Positions 1,974 through 33,533 of a stretch of 38,497 bases of DNA are shown here, in pieces (within the stretch, counting starts at the first letter, position 1; each line of letters starts with the position of its first letter). The notes below the pieces were generated by a model. That model was not told the DNA's origin. It worked only from the letters and a program-made list of their open reading frames with translations, and did not search any database. Made by a program: the position numbers and the translations under genes. Where the stretch lies: the IMG/VR virus record IMGVR_UViG_3300014533_000149, one strand, 5' to 3'. Source of the DNA: a virus. Taxonomy: Duplodnaviria; Heunggongvirae; Uroviricota; Caudoviricetes.

Positions 1974-4580
1974 TTATTTCCTGCAAACTCCAGATGATGT
2001 TAATCCATCAAAAATAACCTGCACTCTGGCAATAACAACATCAACTCCAGAAGTCGTTTCACTTGCATAACCAAGTTTTATTTTAGATACAATATCCTGA
2101 GTAAGTTCAGATATTTCAGTTTCTGCAATGTTACCAGAGGCCATGTGATTATCGTATGCCATAGAATGAATTCCATTATTGACATCGATTGAACTAGTAT
2201 GTTTGTGAAAAATAGATGGGTTTACCTGAAACGAATTTGAACCGATAAGATCAGAAGATACTCCATTCATCACTGCAGTACAGCGTGGAATATTATTATC
2301 GGTTATTGTCATATGCAGACGGTTACCAGTTAACCCCTCACCAAGTGTGACATAATACGCCAATTCTCCACCTGCATATTGTTTCCCCTCAACAATAACA
2401 GTAATCCCTCTTAATTTCTGATTAGCTAGCAAAAACTTATTACTGTCTATATAGCATTTATTTGCGGAACCAAAAACAGCCCCTTCTAAAATATCTGATG
2501 AATAGGAATAAATAAGGTCACCTGAAACAAAGGAAAGAATATCAGATACGTTTCCTTTTTTAGATAAGTTGGGAGAATAGCTATTAACTATTTCATATTG
2601 TCCTGTGATAAAATCAAGGTAAACGCCATCAGTTTTCATCTCTTTAAAGAAAATGCTATTAAAGCATCCATCAAGAACCGGTGGATATATTCTAGAGCTT
2701 GCATAAGCTGTTGGGTGATTCTTATTATTACCACTACCAGGCGAATAAACATCTTCGTTAGTCATTGACTTTTTAAGCTTAACAGGAATCATCGGCTGCA
2801 TATCAATTTTGCAGTTCCCTGAACCACCGATGCGAGGATAAAATAAACCACCAAACCTTACAATATTACTACTGAATAGTATTTCGTTATCGTTAAGTGT
2901 TATCTCAACGAAGTTTCCAATAAGTTTAAATTCAACTGAAAACAAACCAAGTGGAGCAGATAATTTAACAATATTGCGCATAAAAACACCTACAGTCCCT
3001 GTTGATGCAGTATAGTGTGTGGTTTCAAAGGCAGAGCCTGTATATTTCAAGTTAATGAAATTATTATGGTATGAAGACAATTGGAATTGAATCCCAGAAC
3101 TAAGGATTTCAATATCTACAAATTGAATCCTTACGGAGTAAGAATATGATAAATCTTCATATTCATAAGGCAATGTAACATCTTTTGAAATAGTTGCCCT
3201 CACATAATTACCAGAAACCACATCAACCCCATCACGTACTGCATTAAAGTAACGATTAAAATCAATAAGCCCAGCGCCAACATACTGCGCATATGAACGA
3301 GTCCATCCTGCCATTGCGTTTCGTCCATTCTGAGCTTCTAAACTGCTAAATTCAGAGTCACTTGTGGTACTTGATGGGAGGATATTTGTACAAAAAACAA
3401 TTTCAGGCATTGAAGTAATATCATTCAGTTCAGCCATCAATTTAAAAAAAGTTTTCTGCGGGAAGTTACCAACATCCCAACCATCTCCGTCATTCATGCC
3501 AAAAGCAATAATAACAACATCAGGGTTAATATCACGAATGTAATCAATCCAGCGTCTGTTCGTGTCTGAATACCATGGGTACTGTGAGTTATAAGAAGTA
3601 ATTGCTGGTGTATCTTTTCCAAGGTCATAGTACCTCATTCCACCAATTGCTCTGTTAAATAAAGTAGAACTTGGGAATTTCTCTTGCAAAACTCTCTTAA
3701 GATGAGCGGCAAAAATGCTTGATCGATCCACTGTGCTTATATTATATGGGGCACTTAAGCTGTCACCAACTAACACTATTTTTGAGTTAGGCCTTGATAA
3801 TCTCTCAAGTGTTTTAGATGTGACTAAACTGCAGGAATTAATGAACTGAGTACTATTTAGCGTCTGTTCAAGTGTATCACCAAATCTGGTACCAACGTAT
3901 GATGATCCGTTGACACTTGCTAGCTTAAGGCATAAATCAGCAGTATCTGTAATTGAAAAAATAGGAACAGGACGTCCTAAACTGTCATACCCCTGAATTG
4001 AGTTTGCCCTAGAAGATGCTGATGCCATTTCGCTTACTATCTCAGGGAAGCGGAGTGTTTTAGATATGTTGCTGTTAATAACTCCTTTGATAGATGAGTC
4101 TGTATATTTCTTCGTGGAAGCGTCCTGAGGAAATAATGGATCATCAAGGTTACGAATACGATTGCCGAGTGCATCGTAGTAAGTGGCACTAAATGATGGT
4201 TTACGAAGAGCCAGCCGAGCCATGCTTTTGACTAACTGGATCAGCATCGTTAGCTTATCAAAAGCATCCTCATGCACTTCCGCAAAGAACTTACCCTGAT
4301 TGCGCAGATCAGTTTCCTGTGTAACCGGTAGCTCTCGTGATATAGAAATCTTATAGCCATTGGCCAACGCCTTCGACAATATTACATTTCCACCATTGTA
4401 TCCTCCGGCCCCGGTAACTATATAATCAGTATCAAGAGTCAGTACGGTGATATTTTCATGAATATCAACAACCTGCACAATCAAATCAGATTTATTGAAA
4501 ACCCTAAAGGCATACGGAAACGATGTCGTAACGCCGTTACCGGTGTATTCGTTGTGGTCAACTTCGGTTGAGACCGTCAT
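1974..4580 (-). CDS. Tailspike/tail fibre with T7 gp17-like N-terminal anchor and a central SGNH/GDSL esterase-like domain
   Basis: 868 aa; N-terminal ~110 aa resemble the T7 tail-fibre N-terminal domain; GDSLS motif (IVLVGDSLSAPYN) and GxND block (IIAFGMNDGDG); SD GGAGAT 7 nt upstream; visibly AT-rich after the N-terminal part. Confidence 0.75.
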   Translation of the reverse strand: MTVSTEVDHNEYTGNGVTTSFPYAFRVFNKSDLIVQVVDIHENITVLTLDTDYIVTGAGGYNGGNVILSKALANGYKISISRELPVTQETDLRNQGKFFAEVHEDAFDKLTMLIQLVKSMARLALRKPSFSATYYDALGNRIRNLDDPLFPQDASTKKYTDSSIKGVINSNISKTLRFPEIVSEMASASSRANSIQGYDSLGRPVPIFSITDTADLCLKLASVNGSSYVGTRFGDTLEQTLNSTQFINSCSLVTSKTLERLSRPNSKIVLVGDSLSAPYNISTVDRSSIFAAHLKRVLQEKFPSSTLFNRAIGGMRYYDLGKDTPAITSYNSQYPWYSDTNRRWIDYIRDINPDVVIIAFGMNDGDGWDVGNFPQKTFFKLMAELNDITSMPEIVFCTNILPSSTTSDSEFSSLEAQNGRNAMAGWTRSYAQYVGAGLIDFNRYFNAVRDGVDVVSGNYVRATISKDVTLPYEYEDLSYSYSVRIQFVDIEILSSGIQFQLSSYHNNFINLKYTGSAFETTHYTASTGTVGVFMRNIVKLSAPLGLFSVEFKLIGNFVEITLNDNEILFSSNIVRFGGLFYPRIGGSGNCKIDMQPMIPVKLKKSMTNEDVYSPGSGNNKNHPTAYASSRIYPPVLDGCFNSIFFKEMKTDGVYLDFITGQYEIVNSYSPNLSKKGNVSDILSFVSGDLIYSYSSDILEGAVFGSANKCYIDSNKFLLANQKLRGITVIVEGKQYAGGELAYYVTLGEGLTGNRLHMTITDNNIPRCTAVMNGVSSDLIGSNSFQVNPSIFHKHTSSIDVNNGIHSMAYDNHMASGNIAETEISELTQDIVSKIKLGYASETTSGVDVVIARVQVIFDGLTSSGVCRK

Positions 4581-4683
4581 GTTAAATCTCCAGATAGTCG
4601 CAGCACCCGTTGCGCCGCATATCTGGTTATTCTATTACCTGAAAAACCATATATGTATAGAAAGACTATAAATACCAATAGAT

Positions 4684-4700
4684 ATTACCTTTATGGTAAT
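4684..4700. promoter_or_regulatory. Operator-like 17-bp palindrome ATTACC-TTTAT-GGTAAT
   Basis: Perfect dyad; member of a 13-copy intergenic family. Confidence 0.5.
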
Positions 4701-4736
4701 TTGCAAAACGTGCTGGATAGCAAACAAATTATTTGA

Positions 4737-4756
4737 TACTGTATAAATATACAGTT
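4737..4756. promoter_or_regulatory. LexA (SOS) box
   Basis: TACTGTATAAATATACAGTT, a CTGT-N8-ACAG dyad with AT-rich spacer, about 18/20 match to the E. coli LexA consensus; ~20 bp upstream of the 4776 start codon. Confidence 0.65.
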
Positions 4757-4775
4757 ATTGCATGGAGAAGATAAG

Positions 4776-5033
4776 ATGCAGCGGTATCACTATCCACTGG
4801 AAGACGGATTTACCGAAAGGATTCACACGCCGGGAGGCGTCAGGTCACTGGTGGAGGGATCGCACTTGATGAAATTACTCCGGGATCTCGATAAGGATGG
4901 ATTTAATGTCGATGGCCCACTTGCCGAACTGACTGCACTGATTAACTACGTCACCAGCTCACAGATGTCTATGCGGGATCTGCAAACACATCTCGACTAT
5001 TGTGCCGAACAATTACGAAAACAAACCAGATAA
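4776..5033 (+). CDS. Small SOS-box-associated antirepressor-like protein (standalone Ant C-terminal-like domain)
   Basis: 85 aa from ATG 4776 with SD GGAGAAG; ~45% identical by eye to the C-terminal ~65 aa of the Bro-N protein at 5348..6040; LexA box immediately upstream. Confidence 0.55.
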   Translation: MQRYHYPLEDGFTERIHTPGGVRSLVEGSHLMKLLRDLDKDGFNVDGPLAELTALINYVTSSQMSMRDLQTHLDYCAEQLRKQTR

Positions 5034-5063
5034 GGTTTGCAATTACCAAGTGGAGTGCTTATA

Positions 5064-5080
5064 TTTACCTTTGAGGTAAA
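5064..5080. promoter_or_regulatory. Operator-like palindrome TTTACC-TTTGA-GGTAAA
   Basis: Perfect dyad, flanked by inverted repeat GGAGTGC (5052-5058) / GCACTCC (5091-5097). Confidence 0.45.
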
Positions 5081-5163
5081 TTTACATCGCACTCCTCTTG
5101 TGCCATAGTAATCGGGCACTGGCAAAATCCAGTGCCGGGATTGGTCTCCCGGATTACTACAGA

Positions 5164-5193
5164 GGCACATATGCCGCATAAGCGGTTTTTTTT
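5164..5193 (+). terminator. Candidate rho-independent terminator
   Basis: Short GC hairpins (GGCA-CATA-TGCC, CCGC-ATAA-GCGG) followed by an 8-T run; stems are short. Confidence 0.35.
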
Positions 5194-5347
5194 ATGTGTA
5201 AAGCGCACCTATTCTATGGTGGGCTGTGTGGGGGCACCGAAAGGTGCGCCGGGTTCCTTTGTAGCCGGTAAGACCAACTCTGCACAGTTCACCACCATCT
5301 GATTGGTCTCAGCGGTGGTGATTAACCTAACTACAAAGGTGATCGCC

Positions 5348-6040
5348 ATGAATACCAAACCTTCCATCTTTTCCTTTGAGTCATCCTGCCAGATCCGTAT
5401 GTTCATGATTGACGGAGAACCTTGGTTTGTCACCAAAGATGTGTGCAATGCTTTGAATATTGATGTTACACAAGCGAGAAAACTTGATAAAAAAGGCTGG
5501 AACAAAAAGGGGCTGTATTCAATACAGACCCCTGGTGGAATACAAGAACTATCCATCGTTTCAGAATCAGGTCTCTACATCCTTATTCTGCGTTGCAAAG
5601 AGGCAATGACTGAGGGAACGAGAGCATTCAGATTTCTTGAATGGGTTACAGGCGAGGTTCTTCCTCAGATCCGCCGCACCGGAAGTTACATTAAAAACTC
5701 GCTACCGCAGGAAGAACGCATAAAGATGGTTGCCGACCAGGTAGCCAACGCCACGGCGTCAGCAGTAATGCAGGCGATGAAGATAGAGAACAAAACCTAC
5801 AGTGCTCCACTGAAGCCCGGCTACCGTAGCCTGATTCATTCTCCGTCTGGTGTTCTCGGCCTGACGGAGAACTCACTGCTGATGAATCTGCTGAACCAGT
5901 TACAGGACGACGGGCACGACGTATCGGGCGCGGCGGCGGAGCTGACCACCATGTTCTGCTACATCGTTGGTGTGAGCAAATGCCTGCGTGATATCCAGAC
6001 GCACGCGGAGTACATCAACGACAAGGCTGGGTTCTTCTGA
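5348..6040 (+). CDS. Antirepressor (Ant)-like protein with Bro-N N-terminal domain
   Basis: ATG 5348 with SD AAAGGTGA; N-terminal region matches the Bro-N fold pattern (FMIDGEPWFVTKDVCNAL...); C-terminal ~65 aa paralogous to the 4776..5033 product. Confidence 0.65.
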   Translation: MNTKPSIFSFESSCQIRMFMIDGEPWFVTKDVCNALNIDVTQARKLDKKGWNKKGLYSIQTPGGIQELSIVSESGLYILILRCKEAMTEGTRAFRFLEWVTGEVLPQIRRTGSYIKNSLPQEERIKMVADQVANATASAVMQAMKIENKTYSAPLKPGYRSLIHSPSGVLGLTENSLLMNLLNQLQDDGHDVSGAAAELTTMFCYIVGVSKCLRDIQTHAEYINDKAGFF

Positions 6041-6048
6041 CGGGCGGC

Positions 6049-6070
6049 GGCACAGGGATGTGCCTTTAAA
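6049..6070 (+). terminator. Weak terminator-like hairpin after the Ant-like gene
   Basis: GGCACA-GGGA-TGTGCC followed by TTTAAATAAT. Confidence 0.3.
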
Positions 6071-6111
6071 TAATCCTGTACGATTGCAGACCGGGGGGTG
6101 AATAGAGTACT

Positions 6112-6128
6112 ATTACCTTACGGGTGAT
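6112..6128. promoter_or_regulatory. Operator-like imperfect palindrome ATTACC-TTACG-GGTGAT
   Basis: One half-site perfect, the other one mismatch. Confidence 0.35.
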
Positions 6129-6215
6129 CCATAGCGATTAGGCACCGATACAGGAGGAGCCCACATGAGAAAATTTGACGAGTACGAAGGCGTTTAACAT
6201 TCGGATAGTTTAATG

Positions 6216-6239
6216 ACGGGGCCATCAGGCCCCGTTTTC
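6216..6239 (+). terminator. Hairpin terminator/attenuator
   Basis: ACGGGGCC-ATCA-GGCCCCGT followed by TTTTCA; lies between a 10-codon ORF and the 6257 gene. Confidence 0.4.
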
Positions 6240-6256
6240 ATGTCTGGAGACAGTTT

Positions 6257-6796
6257 GTGTTAAGTGAAGAAATGCAATTTGCCATGGCTGTGGCTCAAAT
6301 CGTAAGTGCAGTCGCGGTTTCGCTTGGCTTGTTCATAGCTATCGCTACTATTATTTATAATGTAAATACAGCGAGAAAAGTACACACTTCAGTATTCCTT
6401 GGTGAAAGCAGGTTTGATGTAGATTATAAGAAAGGCCTATCTACTATGCGCCGCATTCACGAGTCGAACAAATCATTCCGCTCTTATATGTATCCAAGCA
6501 ATGGGCAGGCTGATCTTACGGATGAAGAAAAGACAGAGAAGAGAGAAATAATTTACTGTCTAGGTTTCTACGAACGCATGGCTGTGAGCGTGAAGCGGAA
6601 AACTTATGATGAGACCATGATTAAGGAAGTATTTTACAGCTCCGTTGTAAATAACTATCAGATTGCGCTACCTCTTATACAAGCCATTAGAGAAAAAGAA
6701 AACATAAACACATATTTTAAAGAATATGAATGGTTGGCCACACGATGGAAGGATTGCCCATTGAAGGATAAATCCCCGTGGTACAAGTTTTGGTAA
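6257..6796 (+). CDS. Membrane-anchored hypothetical protein (moron; candidate superinfection-exclusion/defence function)
   Basis: 179 aa; N-terminal TM helix then a charged soluble domain; AT-rich; SD GGAGA 6 nt before GTG 6257 (ATG 6272 is an alternative start). Confidence 0.5.
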   Translation: MLSEEMQFAMAVAQIVSAVAVSLGLFIAIATIIYNVNTARKVHTSVFLGESRFDVDYKKGLSTMRRIHESNKSFRSYMYPSNGQADLTDEEKTEKREIIYCLGFYERMAVSVKRKTYDETMIKEVFYSSVVNNYQIALPLIQAIREKENINTYFKEYEWLATRWKDCPLKDKSPWYKFW

Positions 6797-23980: not shown

Positions 23981-24057
23981 GTGGCATTAGCTCAGTTGGA
24001 CAGAGCAACCGCCTTCTAAGCGGTTGGTCGCAGGTTCGAATCCTGCATGCCACGCCA
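23981..24057 (+). tRNA. tRNA-Arg (anticodon UCU)
   Basis: 77 nt; cloverleaf by hand: acceptor GTGGCAT/ATGCCAC, D-stem GCTC/GAGC, anticodon stem ACCGC/GCGGT with loop CTTCTAA, T-arm GCAGG-TTCGAAT-CCTGC, 3' CCA; differs from E. coli argU in stems as recalled. Confidence 0.85.
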
Positions 24058-29198: not shown

Positions 29199-29507
29199 CT
29201 ATGCCTGACTTAAGCCGAGCATTTTCCATAAATAGAACTTTTGCCCGCTGTTTTTCTGCTTCAAGCTCAACGCGCAGCTTCCNNNNNNNNNNNNNNNNNN
29301 NNNNNNNNNNNNNNNNNNNNNNNNNNNNNNNNNNNNNNNNNNNNNNTCCCGTTCATCCAGCAGTGCCAGCGCGATATCTGGCGAAAAGTGCTTCATAAAA
29401 TCGTTAAGCGCATTAATTCGCTGATCGAAGGGCATTACAGGTGCTTCACCAGCAATTTTTGTTTTTTCAGCGATTTCACGAAGCTTTTGATAATCAATCT
29501 TGCTCAC
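29199..29507 (-). CDS. ead/Ea22-like early protein, interrupted by an N run
   Basis: Coiled-coil-like N-terminus; the reading frame crosses 64 N so frame and length are unreliable. Confidence 0.3.
   Translation of the reverse strand: MSKIDYQKLREIAEKTKIAGEAPVMPFDQRINALNDFMKHFSPDIALALLDERXXXXXXXXXXXXXXXXXXXXXXGSCALSLKQKNSGQKFYLWKMLGLSQA
29283..29346. other. Run of 64 N (assembly gap or masked sequence)
   Basis: Directly visible; not a multiple of 3. Confidence 0.99.
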
Positions 29508-32428: not shown

Positions 32429-32659
32429 TCATGAGTAGAAGAAGTATGCCAGTTCTGCTTTTGAGCGCAGCCATTGTCTTGTTTTACAGGCTTTAAAAAG
32501 CCCATTCATCAATACTTTACCTGGCATTTTGCGCTTACCTGTTAAGTGAGTCTGGATATAGTGACTCGTCGTTCCGGCTTCCTGTGCGAAGGCTTCACGC
32601 TCATCCGGAGTAAGTGCAAGCCAGTGCTTTTTGAAATCGAAATGTCCGTTATCGCTCAT
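32429..32659 (-). CDS. Cro-like (YdaS-like) HTH regulator
   Basis: 76 aa; divergent from the repressor-like gene; helix-turn-helix-like core GTTSHYIQTHLTGKRKMPG. Confidence 0.55.
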   Translation of the reverse strand: MSDNGHFDFKKHWLALTPDEREAFAQEAGTTSHYIQTHLTGKRKMPGKVLMNGLFKACKTRQWLRSKAELAYFFYS

Positions 32660-32684: not shown

Positions 32685-32713
32685 ATAATAAATATTCACC
32701 CATAAGGTAACAA
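32685..32713 (-). promoter_or_regulatory. Candidate PR-like promoter for the cro-like gene
   Basis: Minus strand: -35 TTGTTA (32713..32708), 17-bp spacer, -10 TATTAT (32690..32685); overlapped by the 32695 operator. Confidence 0.35.
32695..32711. promoter_or_regulatory. Switch-region operator-like site TTCACC-CATAA-GGTAAC
   Basis: Imperfect dyad; overlaps the candidate -35. Confidence 0.45.
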
Positions 32714-32725
32714 AAATCAAGGATA

Positions 32726-32742
32726 GTTACCTATGGGGTGCA
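32726..32742. promoter_or_regulatory. Switch-region operator-like site GTTACC-TATGG-GGTGCA
   Basis: Imperfect dyad, abuts the next site. Confidence 0.35.
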
Positions 32743-32759
32743 TTTACCTGTTGGGTAAT
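32743..32759. promoter_or_regulatory. Switch-region operator-like site TTTACC-TGTTG-GGTAAT
   Basis: Near-perfect dyad ~55 bp upstream of the repressor-like start. Confidence 0.5.
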
Positions 32760-32813: not shown

Positions 32814-33398
32814 ATGAAAAGTATCCAGGACGTCCGCAGGCAAAATCTCAACGACTTGATCGACCGTGAATTCAATGGTGTTCAGACGCGGATGGCAGAA
32901 AAACTTGGAACTCAGGCAAATCTGGTAAACCGCTGGGCTCTTGGCAAGAAGGTTATCGGCGACCAGGTTGCGCGAAAAATTGAAGCTGCCGCCAATAAAC
33001 CCCGTAACTGGCTTGATATCGATCGCTCGCTTTCTCAGGAAGGTTTTCAGCCTGTCGGCCCAAGCGACATTGGTCAGCTGGCGGCTCACAACCTGGAACG
33101 CTGGATGAGCGAAAGCCGCGACCTTTCAACACAGGGAAAACTTCACCGCGCATCCGGCGTCGCCCAGGTGACAATCAGCCGCCTGTTAAACAATGAGGTC
33201 AGCGTTTCCATTTCCACCCTGGAGAATGTTGCATCCGCATTCGGGCGTCACGGCTATGAATTACTGATTCACCCGCACGACCCTGCGACCATCAACTATG
33301 ACCGCTCGCGCTACGCATTGTTACCCGAAACCGAGAAAGCAAAGATCGAAAGTTACATTGAATTTGTCATCAACCAGAACGAAAAAAACAAACAATAA
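32814..33398 (+). CDS. Tandem-HTH repressor-like protein, no peptidase S24 autocleavage domain seen (putative prophage repressor)
   Basis: 194 aa with two Cro/C1-type HTH-like segments (about aa 5-65 and 100-165); weak SD; divergent from the cro-like gene; own terminator downstream. Confidence 0.6.
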   Translation: MKSIQDVRRQNLNDLIDREFNGVQTRMAEKLGTQANLVNRWALGKKVIGDQVARKIEAAANKPRNWLDIDRSLSQEGFQPVGPSDIGQLAAHNLERWMSESRDLSTQGKLHRASGVAQVTISRLLNNEVSVSISTLENVASAFGRHGYELLIHPHDPATINYDRSRYALLPETEKAKIESYIEFVINQNEKNKQ

Positions 33399-33454: not shown

Positions 33455-33471
33455 ATTACCTTAAGGGTAAT
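33455..33471. promoter_or_regulatory. Operator-like palindrome ATTACC-TTAAG-GGTAAT
   Basis: Perfect dyad ~19 bp upstream of the candidate -35. Confidence 0.5.
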
Positions 33472-33489
33472 TTTTTTAACTCATATCTA

Positions 33490-33518
33490 TTGACACCAAA
33501 CCAAATACGCATAATCAT
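33490..33518 (+). promoter_or_regulatory. Candidate PL-like early promoter
   Basis: -35 TTGACA (33490..33495), 17-bp spacer, weak -10 AATCAT (33513..33518) running into the next operator; same layout as the 30365..30393 promoter. Confidence 0.4.
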
Positions 33519-33533
33519 TACCTCAACGGTAAC
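33517..33533. promoter_or_regulatory. Operator-like palindrome ATTACC-TCAAC-GGTAAC
   Basis: Overlaps the candidate -10/+1 and supplies the SD (GAGGTAA) for the 33552 ORF. Confidence 0.45.

What the first reader, a model, noticed from the sequence alone, without database searches (positions are those of the whole stretch)
4737..5033. LexA box in front of a small antirepressor-like gene, with a repressor lacking an autocleavage domain
A 20-bp near-consensus SOS box (TACTGTATAAATATACAGTT) lies ~20 bp upstream of an 85-aa ORF. The putative prophage repressor (32814..33398) shows two HTH domains and no visible peptidase S24 domain. Together these suggest induction works through a LexA-controlled antirepressor, as in Gifsy, 186 (Tum) and N15, rather than RecA-stimulated self-cleavage. 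The box is also ~160-175 bp upstream of the divergent tailspike/lysis genes.
Basis: partly seen in the sequence, partly recalled or inferred. Interest (0 to 1): 0.8.

Follow-up and report, generated by a model that had tools for sequence, protein, structure and literature searches.

The report
SOS-controlled antirepressor of a prophage
This is the DNA-damage switch of an epsilon15/phiV10-type E. coli prophage: host LexA keeps a small antirepressor gene silent until DNA damage, and the antirepressor then disables a non-cleavable phage repressor, a mechanism already worked out and crystallised in the sister Salmonella phage SPC32H.

Summary

- **SOS box.** A near-perfect box (TACTGTATAAATATACAGTT, 4737-4756) lies 19 nt upstream of an 85-aa gene (4776-5033). 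It is the only SOS-like site in the 38.5-kb window.
- **Ant.** The 85-aa protein is 87% identical to Ant of Salmonella phage SPC32H (PDB 5D50 chain E).
- **Rep.** The 194-aa repressor (32814-33398) aligns over its full length with SPC32H Rep (5D50 chain A, 42% identity). It has no S24 domain and no Ala-Gly or Cys-Gly site.
- **Conservation.** Box, promoter geometry and gene position are conserved in Escherichia, Salmonella, Enterobacter, Citrobacter and other relatives. SPC32N differs from SPC32H by a C-to-A change inside the box.
- **Family.** Ant shows no sequence similarity to 186 Tum or N15 AntC and lacks the Gifsy operon layout, so these are functional analogues; homology to the Gifsy proteins was not tested.

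Beyond the finding, a second antirepressor module follows directly. It has a Rep-type operator, isrK sRNA, C4 antisense RNA and a Bro-N protein with an Ant-like C-domain. The same palindrome (ATTACC-N5-GGTAAT) marks 14 sites in the prophage. The locus is in about 10% of complete E. coli genomes, annotated "hypothetical protein". Interest is low to moderate.

The parts
4737..4756 (.). LexA (SOS) box TACTGTATAAATATACAGTT
   Evidence: It has 2 mismatches to the consensus and is unique in the window. It scores 27.7 bits on the PWM. CTGT-N8-ACAG is kept in 79 of 80 IMG/VR loci, with only the central spacer varying, and in the Salmonella, Enterobacter, Citrobacter, Erwinia, Scandinavium and Pseudocitrobacter relatives.
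4714..4742 (+). Inferred ant promoter: -35 TGGATA (4714-4719), 17-bp spacer, -10 TACTGT (4737-4742, the left arm of the LexA box)
   Evidence: This is the only promoter-like geometry conserved in all 10 relatives that carry a CTGT box. The annotated SOS promoter p95 of phage 186 has the same geometry, with its -10 formed by the first 6 nt of its LexA box. No transcription start was mapped here.
4776..5033 (+). ant, an 85-aa antirepressor (GGAG Shine-Dalgarno at 4764-4767)
   Evidence: It is 87% identical to SPC32H ant (SPC32H_020). It matches PDB 5D50_E 'Anti-repressor protein' at E=3.5e-46 over residues 2-84, and phrog_450 at E=1e-47.
4684..4700 (.). Rep-type operator palindrome ATTACCTTTATGGTAAT between the divergent ant and tailspike promoters
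   Evidence: It belongs to a family of 14 sites against 0.73 expected. The half-sites are conserved in 7 of the 8 aligned relatives (phiV10 has GGTGA) while the spacer varies. The epsilon15 record annotates the equivalent site as a repressor binding site. Its role at this position is unresolved.
4629..4657 (-). Candidate tailspike/lysis promoter: -35 TACATA (4657-4652), -10 TAGAAT (4634-4629)
   Evidence: The -35/17 bp/-10 geometry is found at the same position in all 7 genomes compared; the -10 is TAGAAT in 6 of 7. This is a consensus match only.
32814..33398 (+). rep, a 194-aa prophage repressor with two HTH-type domains and no S24 domain
   Evidence: It matches PDB 5D50_A 'Repressor' at E=4e-42 over residues 1-190. 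Identity to SPC32H rep is 42% overall: 52% in the N-domain and 37% in the C-domain. Pfam finds HTH_3 only. It is 100% identical to the repressors of phiV10 and ZX5.
32696..32758 (.). OR-like operator cluster between rep and the divergent cro-like gene, with sites at 32696, 32727 and 32744
   Evidence: SPC32H has three equivalent sites at the same place.
33456..33532 (.). OL-like operator pair downstream of rep (33456 and 33518), ahead of the early-left genes
   Evidence: Epsilon15 annotates three repressor sites at the equivalent position.
32429..32659 (-). cro-like small regulator, divergent from rep
   Evidence: phrog_35 'transcriptional repressor', E=5.6e-13.
5065..5109 (+). Rep-type operator (5065-5079) abutting the isrK promoter: -35 TTTACA 5081-5086, -10 CATAGT 5104-5109
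   Evidence: The operator half-sites are conserved across eight genera (TTACC in all eight, GGTAA in seven; Kluyvera has GGTGC) while the 5-bp spacer varies. Of the promoter hexamers, -10 CATAGT is invariant and -35 is TTTACA in five of eight. The predicted start at about 5116 coincides with the 5' end of the Rfam isrK match.
5116..5192 (+). isrK-type sRNA with an intrinsic terminator
   Evidence: Rfam RF01394, 74.7 bits against a gathering score of 50. The terminator is at 5173-5186 followed by a T-run.
5212..5299 (+). C4 antisense RNA (P1/P7 immI type, STnc1160-like)
   Evidence: Rfam RF01695, 78.6 bits against a gathering score of 45. The loop CCTTTGTAG is complementary to CTACAAAGG at 5331-5339, which covers the Shine-Dalgarno of the next gene. 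AGACCAA is complementary to TTGGTCT at 5303-5309 and in the isrK loop at 5141-5147.
5348..6040 (+). Second antirepressor (230 aa): Bro-N N-domain plus an Ant-like C-domain
   Evidence: Pfam Bro-N, E=1.8e-13. phrog_130 'anti-repressor Ant' and phrog_450 cover the C-terminus. The C-domain is 43% identical to the small Ant over 74 aa, E=3e-16. The protein is 80% identical to ZX5 ORF4, whose overexpression lowered lysogeny. The N-domain is 49% identical to N15 AntC.

Best explanation
The locus is the SOS-induction module of an epsilon15/phiV10-type (Uetakevirus) prophage, orthologous to the Ant/Rep switch of Salmonella phage SPC32H.

In the lysogen, Rep holds the lytic promoters off. Rep has an N-terminal HTH DNA-binding domain and a C-terminal tetramerisation/Ant-binding domain, with no protease domain. 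It is inferred to bind ATTACC-N5-GGTAAT operators on both sides of rep and at other promoters.

Host LexA sits on the box at 4737-4756. The box overlaps the -10 and the start region of the ant promoter, so ant is silent. DNA damage activates RecA and LexA cleaves itself. The 85-aa Ant is then made, binds Rep and takes it off the DNA without cleaving it, and lytic genes are expressed.

Shown here by sequence: the box and its conservation, the homology of both proteins to the crystallised pair, and the absence of an autocleavage apparatus.

Taken from the literature: Ant is a tetramer that splits the Rep tetramer into dimers (PMC9638917, citing Kim et al. 2016). SPC32H induction depends on LexA-controlled Ant (PMC7380047, citing Kim and Ryu 2013, plus my own recollection of that abstract).

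Inferred: the promoter assignment, the operator identity, and a second tier. Once Rep is removed, or by read-through from the ant promoter, the isrK/C4-gated Bro-N-Ant protein is made and reinforces or broadcasts derepression.
For: - Box statistics.
- Ant is 87% identical to SPC32H 'ant' and matches 5D50_E at E=3.5e-46.
- Rep matches 5D50_A over its full length at E=4e-42. It has no S24 domain and no Ala-Gly or Cys-Gly dipeptide.
- The gene position is the same as in SPC32H, epsilon15 and phiV10, between the tailspike and virion-protein genes and about 28 kb from rep.
- The box is intact in 79 of 80 near relatives, with variation only in the central spacer. It is also intact in divergent genera where the surrounding DNA is only 75% conserved.
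- A natural experiment: SPC32H and SPC32N differ at two positions in this 5.2-kb locus. One is a C-to-A change in the ACAG arm of the box, dropping the PWM score from 25.1 to 18.4 bits.
- The promoter geometry with the -10 inside the box is conserved in 10 of 10 relatives and matches the annotated p95 promoter of phage 186.
- Phage ZX5 has the identical Rep and the identical box and is mitomycin-C inducible, from 1e7 to 1e9 PFU/mL.
Against: - Nothing was measured for this phage: no LexA binding, no Ant-Rep binding, no transcription start.
- Rep is only 42% identical to SPC32H Rep, and 37% in the Ant-binding C-domain, so the interaction is inferred from homology.
- The primary SPC32H papers were not available in the library.
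- A Rep-type operator next to the ant promoter and a second antirepressor gene show that the circuit is more elaborate than the SPC32H model.
- The only experiment in the E. coli clade (ZX5) tested the Bro-N protein, not the small Ant.
Confidence: 0.88

Rival explanations
1. The Bro-N protein (5348-6040) is the antirepressor that matters for induction in this E. coli clade. The small LexA-controlled Ant would then be accessory, for example serving crosstalk with other prophages.
For: ZX5 ORF4 is 80% identical overall and about 99% identical in the C-half. Its overexpression lowered lysogeny about 1000-fold and reduced repressor transcripts. It carries an Ant-like C-domain. No terminator separates ant from isrK, so SOS-driven transcription could reach it.
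Against: It has no SOS box of its own, since the next-best site in the window scores 10.2 bits. Its ribosome-binding site is covered by complementarity to the C4 RNA. SPC32H and epsilon15 lack this module entirely yet keep the LexA-box ant. The small Ant is under strong conservation, 61-98% identity across 5 genera.
Confidence: 0.08
2. Rep is inactivated by RecA-stimulated self-cleavage, as in lambda cI, and the LexA box is incidental to induction.
For: None found. The only point in favour is that SOS-inducible repressor cleavage is the textbook default.
Against: There is no Peptidase_S24 hit at E <= 1 and no Ala-Gly or Cys-Gly dipeptide. The C-domain is homologous to the crystallised tetramerisation/Ant-binding domain of SPC32H Rep, 5D4Z and 5D50.
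Confidence: 0.02
3. The LexA box mainly controls the divergent tailspike-holin-endolysin-spanin operon, making lysis and tail genes SOS-dependent.
For: The box lies in the shared 195-bp intergenic region, 157-176 bp from the tailspike ATG.
Against: The conserved minus-strand promoter candidate (4629-4657) puts the box centre about 125 bp upstream of that start, too far for occlusion. The box instead overlaps the conserved plus-strand -10. In SPC32N the box mutation is linked to ant expression (my recollection of Kim and Ryu 2013).
Confidence: 0.02

Closest known systems
Ant/Rep antirepression system of Salmonella phage SPC32H (Kim and Ryu 2013, J Virol; Kim et al. 2016, PNAS; PDB 5D50, 5D4Z)
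   Same: Same virus genus and same gene position. Ant is 87% identical. Rep is homologous over its full length with the same two-domain layout and no S24 domain. A LexA box sits at the same distance (-39) from the ant start. The same operator half-sites, ATTACC-N5-GGTAAT, flank rep.
   Different: Rep is only 42% identical. The window phage adds a second module (isrK, C4 RNA, Bro-N-Ant protein) directly downstream, which SPC32H and epsilon15 lack. The host is E. coli, and nothing has been tested experimentally for the small Ant in this clade.
Gifsy-1/-2/-3 antirepressors GfoA, GftA and GfhA with repressors GfoR, GtgR and GfhR (PMC3121763)
   Same: The logic is the same: a non-cleavable repressor, and a small antirepressor encoded far from the immunity region under direct LexA control.
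   Different: In Gifsy the LexA-controlled unit is dinI-antirepressor-irsA, and the repressors are about 150 aa, resembling the lambda cI N-domain. Here ant is the first gene after the box, there is no dinI homologue, and Rep is a 194-aa two-domain protein. Sequence homology to the Gifsy proteins was not tested.
Tum of coliphage 186
   Same: It is a LexA-repressed antirepressor. The p95 promoter has its -10 hexamer inside the LexA box, as inferred here. The 186 box is identical to the epsilon15 box.
   Different: There is no significant sequence similarity: 17 bits, E=0.04 in a pairwise comparison. Tum is 146 aa with a DinI-like C-half. The phage family is different.
AntC of N15
   Same: It is an SOS-linked antirepressor according to the literature cited in PMC3121763.
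   Different: The small Ant is unrelated to AntC. It is the neighbouring Bro-N protein whose N-domain is 49% identical to AntC.
P1/P7 immI (c4 RNA-icd-ant) and the Gifsy-1 isrK-orf45/STnc1160-anrP locus (PMC4825925)
   Same: This comparison concerns the second module only. It has isrK and C4 RNAs above their Rfam gathering scores. The C4 loops are complementary to the leader and Shine-Dalgarno of a downstream Bro-N antirepressor gene. A small ORF overlaps C4.
   Different: Here the module sits directly behind a LexA-controlled Ant and is preceded by a Rep-type operator. Its protein ends in an Ant-like domain.

Membership tests
SPC32H-type Ant/Rep antirepression switch (Uetakevirus) | Small (about 85 aa) Ant homologous to SPC32H Ant | tested here: met
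   87% identity by tblastn to KC911856 'ant'. 5D50_E matches at E=3.5e-46 over residues 2-84.
SPC32H-type Ant/Rep antirepression switch (Uetakevirus) | [quoted passage not shown] | tested here: met
   5D50_A matches at E=4e-42 over residues 1-190, and 5D4Z (C-domain) matches at E=4e-20. Identity is 52% in the N-domain and 37% in the C-domain.
SPC32H-type Ant/Rep antirepression switch (Uetakevirus) | LexA box overlapping the ant promoter | tested here: met
   The sequence criterion is met. The box is at the same offset as in SPC32H. Actual LexA binding was not testable.
SPC32H-type Ant/Rep antirepression switch (Uetakevirus) | ant lies outside the immunity region, between the tailspike and virion-protein genes | tested here: met
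   Synteny with SPC32H, epsilon15 and phiV10. ant is about 28 kb from rep.
SPC32H-type Ant/Rep antirepression switch (Uetakevirus) | Ant binds Rep and releases it from operator DNA; Rep is not cleaved during SOS | not testable with these tools
   This needs biochemistry. Indirect support only: ZX5 has the identical Rep and is mitomycin-C inducible.
Autocleaving lambda cI/LexA-type repressors (Peptidase S24) | C-terminal S24 domain with a Ser/Lys dyad and an Ala-Gly or Cys-Gly cleavage site | tested here: not met
   No S24 hit at E <= 1. No Ala-Gly or Cys-Gly dipeptide in Rep.
186 Tum family | Sequence homology to Tum, including its DinI-like C-terminal half | tested here: not met
   BLASTP gives 17 bits, E=0.04. 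There is no DinI-type Pfam hit.
Gifsy GfoA/GftA antirepressor loci | LexA-controlled dinI-antirepressor-irsA operon | tested here: not met
   ant is the first gene after the box. The neighbours are isrK, C4 and a Bro-N gene, and no DinI hit was found.
Gifsy GfoA/GftA antirepressor loci | Sequence homology to GfoA, GftA or GfhA | not tested
   No Gifsy protein sequences were fetched.
N15 AntC family | Sequence homology of the 85-aa protein to AntC | tested here: not met
   BLASTP E=1.5. The adjacent Bro-N protein does match the AntC N-domain at E=1e-32.
P1 immI / Gifsy-1 isrK-anrP type RNA-gated antirepressor module (second gene only) | isrK and C4 RNAs upstream of a Bro-N/Ant gene, with C4 loops complementary to the gene's leader and ribosome-binding site | tested here: met
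   Rfam gives 74.7 and 78.6 bits, both above the gathering scores. There is a 9-nt perfect complement over the Shine-Dalgarno and 7-nt complements at two further sites. Bro-N domain.

The most novel reading that the evidence does not exclude
The E. coli clade may run a two-stage antirepressor relay that has not been described.

In stage one, the LexA-gated small Ant fires first. In stage two, loss of Rep from the operator abutting the isrK promoter, and/or read-through from the ant promoter, changes the isrK/C4 RNA balance. This releases translation of a Bro-N-Ant fusion, which locks in induction or broadcasts it to co-resident prophages.

The Rep-type operator placed between the divergent ant and tailspike promoters would add Rep feedback on ant itself.

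The arrangement is in most E. coli relatives: 53 of 80 IMG/VR loci carry every element and 72 of 80 have a second Ant-like domain. It is also in at least six other genera, and is absent from the only experimentally studied member, SPC32H.
Probability: 0.35. Interest if true: 0.5.

Novelty: already known. Interest (0 to 1): 0.27.

Why it matters
As a mechanism it adds nothing new. LexA-controlled antirepression of a non-cleavable repressor in this phage genus has been published and crystallised.

Its practical value is in annotation. The 85-aa gene is labelled "hypothetical protein" in 531 of 5,426 complete E. coli genomes and in most phage records. A 2022 study of phage ZX5, which has the same repressor and the same box, discussed induction without noticing either the gene or the LexA box. 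Recognising it explains why these prophages, which include O157-typing and O-antigen-modifying phages, respond to DNA-damaging antibiotics.

The tandem second antirepressor, with its isrK/C4 RNA gate and Rep operator, is the only part that could repay experiments.

Tried and rejected
- **Primary papers.** I tried to read Kim and Ryu 2013 and Kim et al. 2016, but neither is held. The epsilon15 genome paper is not held either. I relied on secondary citations, database annotations and my recollection, and marked them as such.
- **IMG/VR scan.** It returned only 98-100% identical loci. These were useful for prevalence but not for divergence, so I used annotated phages and one genome per species instead.
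- **Promoter candidates rejected or left open.**
  - TTGATA/TATTGC downstream of the box would leave no leader for the Shine-Dalgarno.
  - TTGCAA (4701-4706) abutting the operator has no conserved -10.
  - TTGCAA/TATATT at 5037-5065 is poorly conserved. The conserved TTTACA/CATAGT pair predicts the isrK 5' end.
- **RNA duplex energies.** The RNAduplex values are not informative, because the program unfolds everything. Only the exact complementarities are used.
- **PADLOC.** No hits on the accessory genes and both antirepressors.
- **Tum and AntC homology.** Tested and negative.

Full report
**What the window is.** The 38.5-kb window is a phiV10/TL-2011b/epsilon15-type podovirus (genus Uetakevirus) in prophage permutation.
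- It starts at the stop codon of the Rz spanin gene and ends at the start of a 416-aa integrase.
- The tailspike, two holins, endolysin and spanin are on the minus strand at the left end.
- Region 4300-6100 is 90-97% identical to E. coli phages EC.W1-9, TL-2011b, phiV10 and ZX5. It is 75-80% identical to Enterobacter and Salmonella relatives.

**The observation.**
- TACTGTATAAATATACAGTT is at 4737-4756. It is the only site in the window within three mismatches of the SOS consensus, and no shuffle produced one.
- I built a weight matrix from 24 E. coli SOS boxes recalled from the literature, so it is approximate. On it the site scores 27.7 bits, above all those boxes in leave-one-out scoring. 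The runner-up in the window scores 10.2 bits.
- The 85-aa ORF (ATG 4776, stop 5033) has a GGAG Shine-Dalgarno 8 nt upstream.
- The 194-aa ORF at 32814-33398 has two HTH-type regions. It has no Peptidase_S24 hit even at E <= 1 and not a single Ala-Gly or Cys-Gly dipeptide.

**What it is.**
- The 85-aa protein is 87% identical to the gene annotated 'ant: anti-repressor protein' in Salmonella phage SPC32H. It matches chain E of PDB 5D50, 'Anti-repressor protein', at E=3.5e-46.
- The 194-aa protein aligns over residues 1-190 with chain A of the same entry, 'Repressor', at E=4e-42. It is 42% identical to SPC32H 'rep': 52% in the N-terminal domain and 37% in the C-terminal domain.
- SPC32H carries TACTGTATGTTTATACAGTG at the same offset in front of ant.
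- Secondary sources state that SPC32H Rep works as a tetramer and that tetrameric Ant binds two Rep dimers and breaks the tetramer (PMC9638917). They also say that in several Salmonella prophages, citing Kim and Ryu 2013, LexA self-cleavage leads to synthesis of an antirepressor that inhibits the repressor by protein-protein contact (PMC7380047).
- The primary papers are not in the library. My recollection of the 2013 abstract is that Rep is not cleaved, that ant is repressed by LexA at a site overlapping its promoter, and that a single base change in that site makes SPC32N constitutively lytic.
- The records bear this out. Within this 5.2-kb locus SPC32H and SPC32N differ at two positions, one of them a C-to-A change in the ACAG arm of the box. 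That change lowers the matrix score from 25.1 to 18.4 bits.

**Conservation.**
- In 79 of 80 IMG/VR loci with 98-100% identical Ant, CTGT-N8-ACAG is intact and only the three central spacer positions vary. The single exception has a rearrangement breakpoint inside the box.
- Across Escherichia, Salmonella and Enterobacter phages the tailspike-ant spacer is only 75% conserved, yet both arms of the box are invariant.
- One-genome-per-species scanning found the same layout in eight Enterobacteriaceae species. The five with an intact box are Citrobacter (two species), Candidatus Erwinia, Pseudocitrobacter and Scandinavium. The other three, Superficieibacter, Kluyvera and Klebsiella, carry a degenerate left arm, ATGT for CTGT.
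- The only promoter-like geometry shared by all ten CTGT-box relatives is -35 TGGATA, 17 bp, -10 TACTGT, so the -10 is the left arm of the box. This is the arrangement annotated for the SOS promoter p95 of phage 186.
- LexA bound there would occlude RNA polymerase. This step is inferred, not mapped.

**The repressor's sites.**
- The palindrome TTACC-N5-GGTAA (one mismatch allowed) occurs 14 times against 0.73 expected.
- There are three sites between rep and the divergent cro-like gene and two just downstream of rep. Others lie at further intergenic positions.
- SPC32H has three plus three sites around its rep.
- The epsilon15 GenBank record annotates exactly this motif as 'repressor' binding sites, including one in the tailspike-gp19(ant) spacer.
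- In the window that copy (4684-4700) lies between the inferred ant promoter and a conserved minus-strand promoter candidate for the tailspike (4629-4657), upstream of both -35 elements. Its role there is unexplained.
- The box centre is about 125 bp from the tailspike promoter candidate, so direct LexA control of the tailspike/lysis operon is unlikely.

**The named analogues.**
- Ant shows no significant similarity to 186 Tum or N15 AntC.
- Its locus does not have the Gifsy dinI-antirepressor-irsA organisation. Sequence homology to the Gifsy proteins was not tested.
- 186 Tum and N15 AntC are therefore functional analogues, not relatives.

**Beyond the finding: a second module.**
- No terminator separates ant from what follows.
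- A Rep-type palindrome at 5065-5079 abuts a conserved promoter (-35 TTTACA, -10 CATAGT). That promoter's predicted start coincides with the 5' end of an isrK sRNA (5116-5192, 74.7 bits).
- A C4 antisense RNA follows (5212-5299, 78.6 bits).
- One C4 loop is a perfect 9-nt complement of the Shine-Dalgarno region of the next gene. A second C4 segment complements two TTGGTCT copies, one in the leader and one in an isrK loop.
- That next gene (5348-6040) encodes a Bro-N domain, 49% identical to the N15 AntC N-domain. It is fused to a C-terminal domain 43% identical to the small Ant.
- This is the logic of P1 immI and of the Gifsy-1 isrK-orf45-anrP locus (PMC4825925).
- Its ZX5 orthologue, 80% identical overall and about 99% in the C-half, lowered lysogeny about 1000-fold when overexpressed.
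- The two-module layout is the commonest in E. coli relatives: 53 of 80 IMG/VR loci have every element and 72 of 80 have a second Ant-like domain. It occurs in at least six other genera. SPC32H and epsilon15 have only the first module.

**Prevalence and annotation.**
- The 501-bp core of the locus is present in 531 of 5,426 complete E. coli genomes, annotated 'hypothetical protein'.
- The ZX5 paper reports mitomycin-C induction of a phage with the identical Rep and the identical box. It never mentions LexA, SPC32H or the small gene.

**Verdict.** The system is a straightforward orthologue of a published, structurally solved switch. The residual interest lies in the unannotated status of ant in E. 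coli and in the tandem, RNA-gated second antirepressor and the operator placement, which are undescribed as far as I could find.

Noticed in passing
window 5065-6040: A second antirepressor module lies directly behind ant. It consists of a Rep-type operator, the isrK sRNA, the C4 antisense RNA, and a Bro-N protein with an Ant-like C-domain. C4 is complementary to that gene's Shine-Dalgarno. The module is present in most E. coli relatives and at least six other genera, and absent from SPC32H and epsilon15.
   Followed up: yes
window 1660, 4685, 5065, 6113, 23645, 24259, 27282, 27300, 30351, 30413, 32696, 32744, 33456, 33518: There are fourteen copies of the palindrome TTACC-N5-GGTAA against 0.7 expected, nearly all intergenic. 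It is the same motif that the epsilon15 record annotates as repressor sites. This suggests Rep directly controls many promoters, including late ones.
   Followed up: partly
window 4684-4700: The operator copy next to ant lies upstream of both divergent -35 elements, at about -57 and -70, so it is not a simple occlusion site. Epsilon15 annotates an IHF site beside it. Its function is unresolved.
   Followed up: partly
L086, L087, L093, L096, L097 (Klebsiella, Superficieibacter, Kluyvera loci), about -44 from ant: These relatives have ATGT instead of CTGT in the left arm of the box (17.9 bits against 27.7). Their ant may be more weakly repressed by LexA or repressed differently.
   Followed up: no
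L054 (IMG/VR), about 20-30 nt upstream of ant: This is the one near-identical locus that lacks the box. The left arm and everything upstream are replaced by unrelated sequence, so a rearrangement or insertion breakpoint lies inside the LexA box.
   Followed up: no
L100 9045-9064 (phage 186) and L083 (epsilon15): The annotated LexA box of the 186 p95 promoter, TACTGTATGTTTATACAGTA, is identical to the epsilon15 ant box, although the antirepressor proteins are unrelated.
   Followed up: no
window 29283-29346: A run of 64 N (masked or unsequenced bases) lies in the early-gene region.
   Followed up: no
window 23981-24057: A tRNA-Arg (anticodon TCT) gene lies on the plus strand between two operator-type palindromes (23645 and 24259).
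   Followed up: no
window 6113-6796: An accessory gene encoding a DUF4760 protein (179 aa, phrog_2284) is preceded by an operator-like site at 6113. It has no PADLOC hit and its function is unknown.
   Followed up: partly
window 5216-5302: A small ORF overlaps the C4 RNA. ZX5 annotates the equivalent as an 'ash family protein', and it recalls orf45 of the Gifsy-1 isrK locus, which couples translation to anrP.
   Followed up: no
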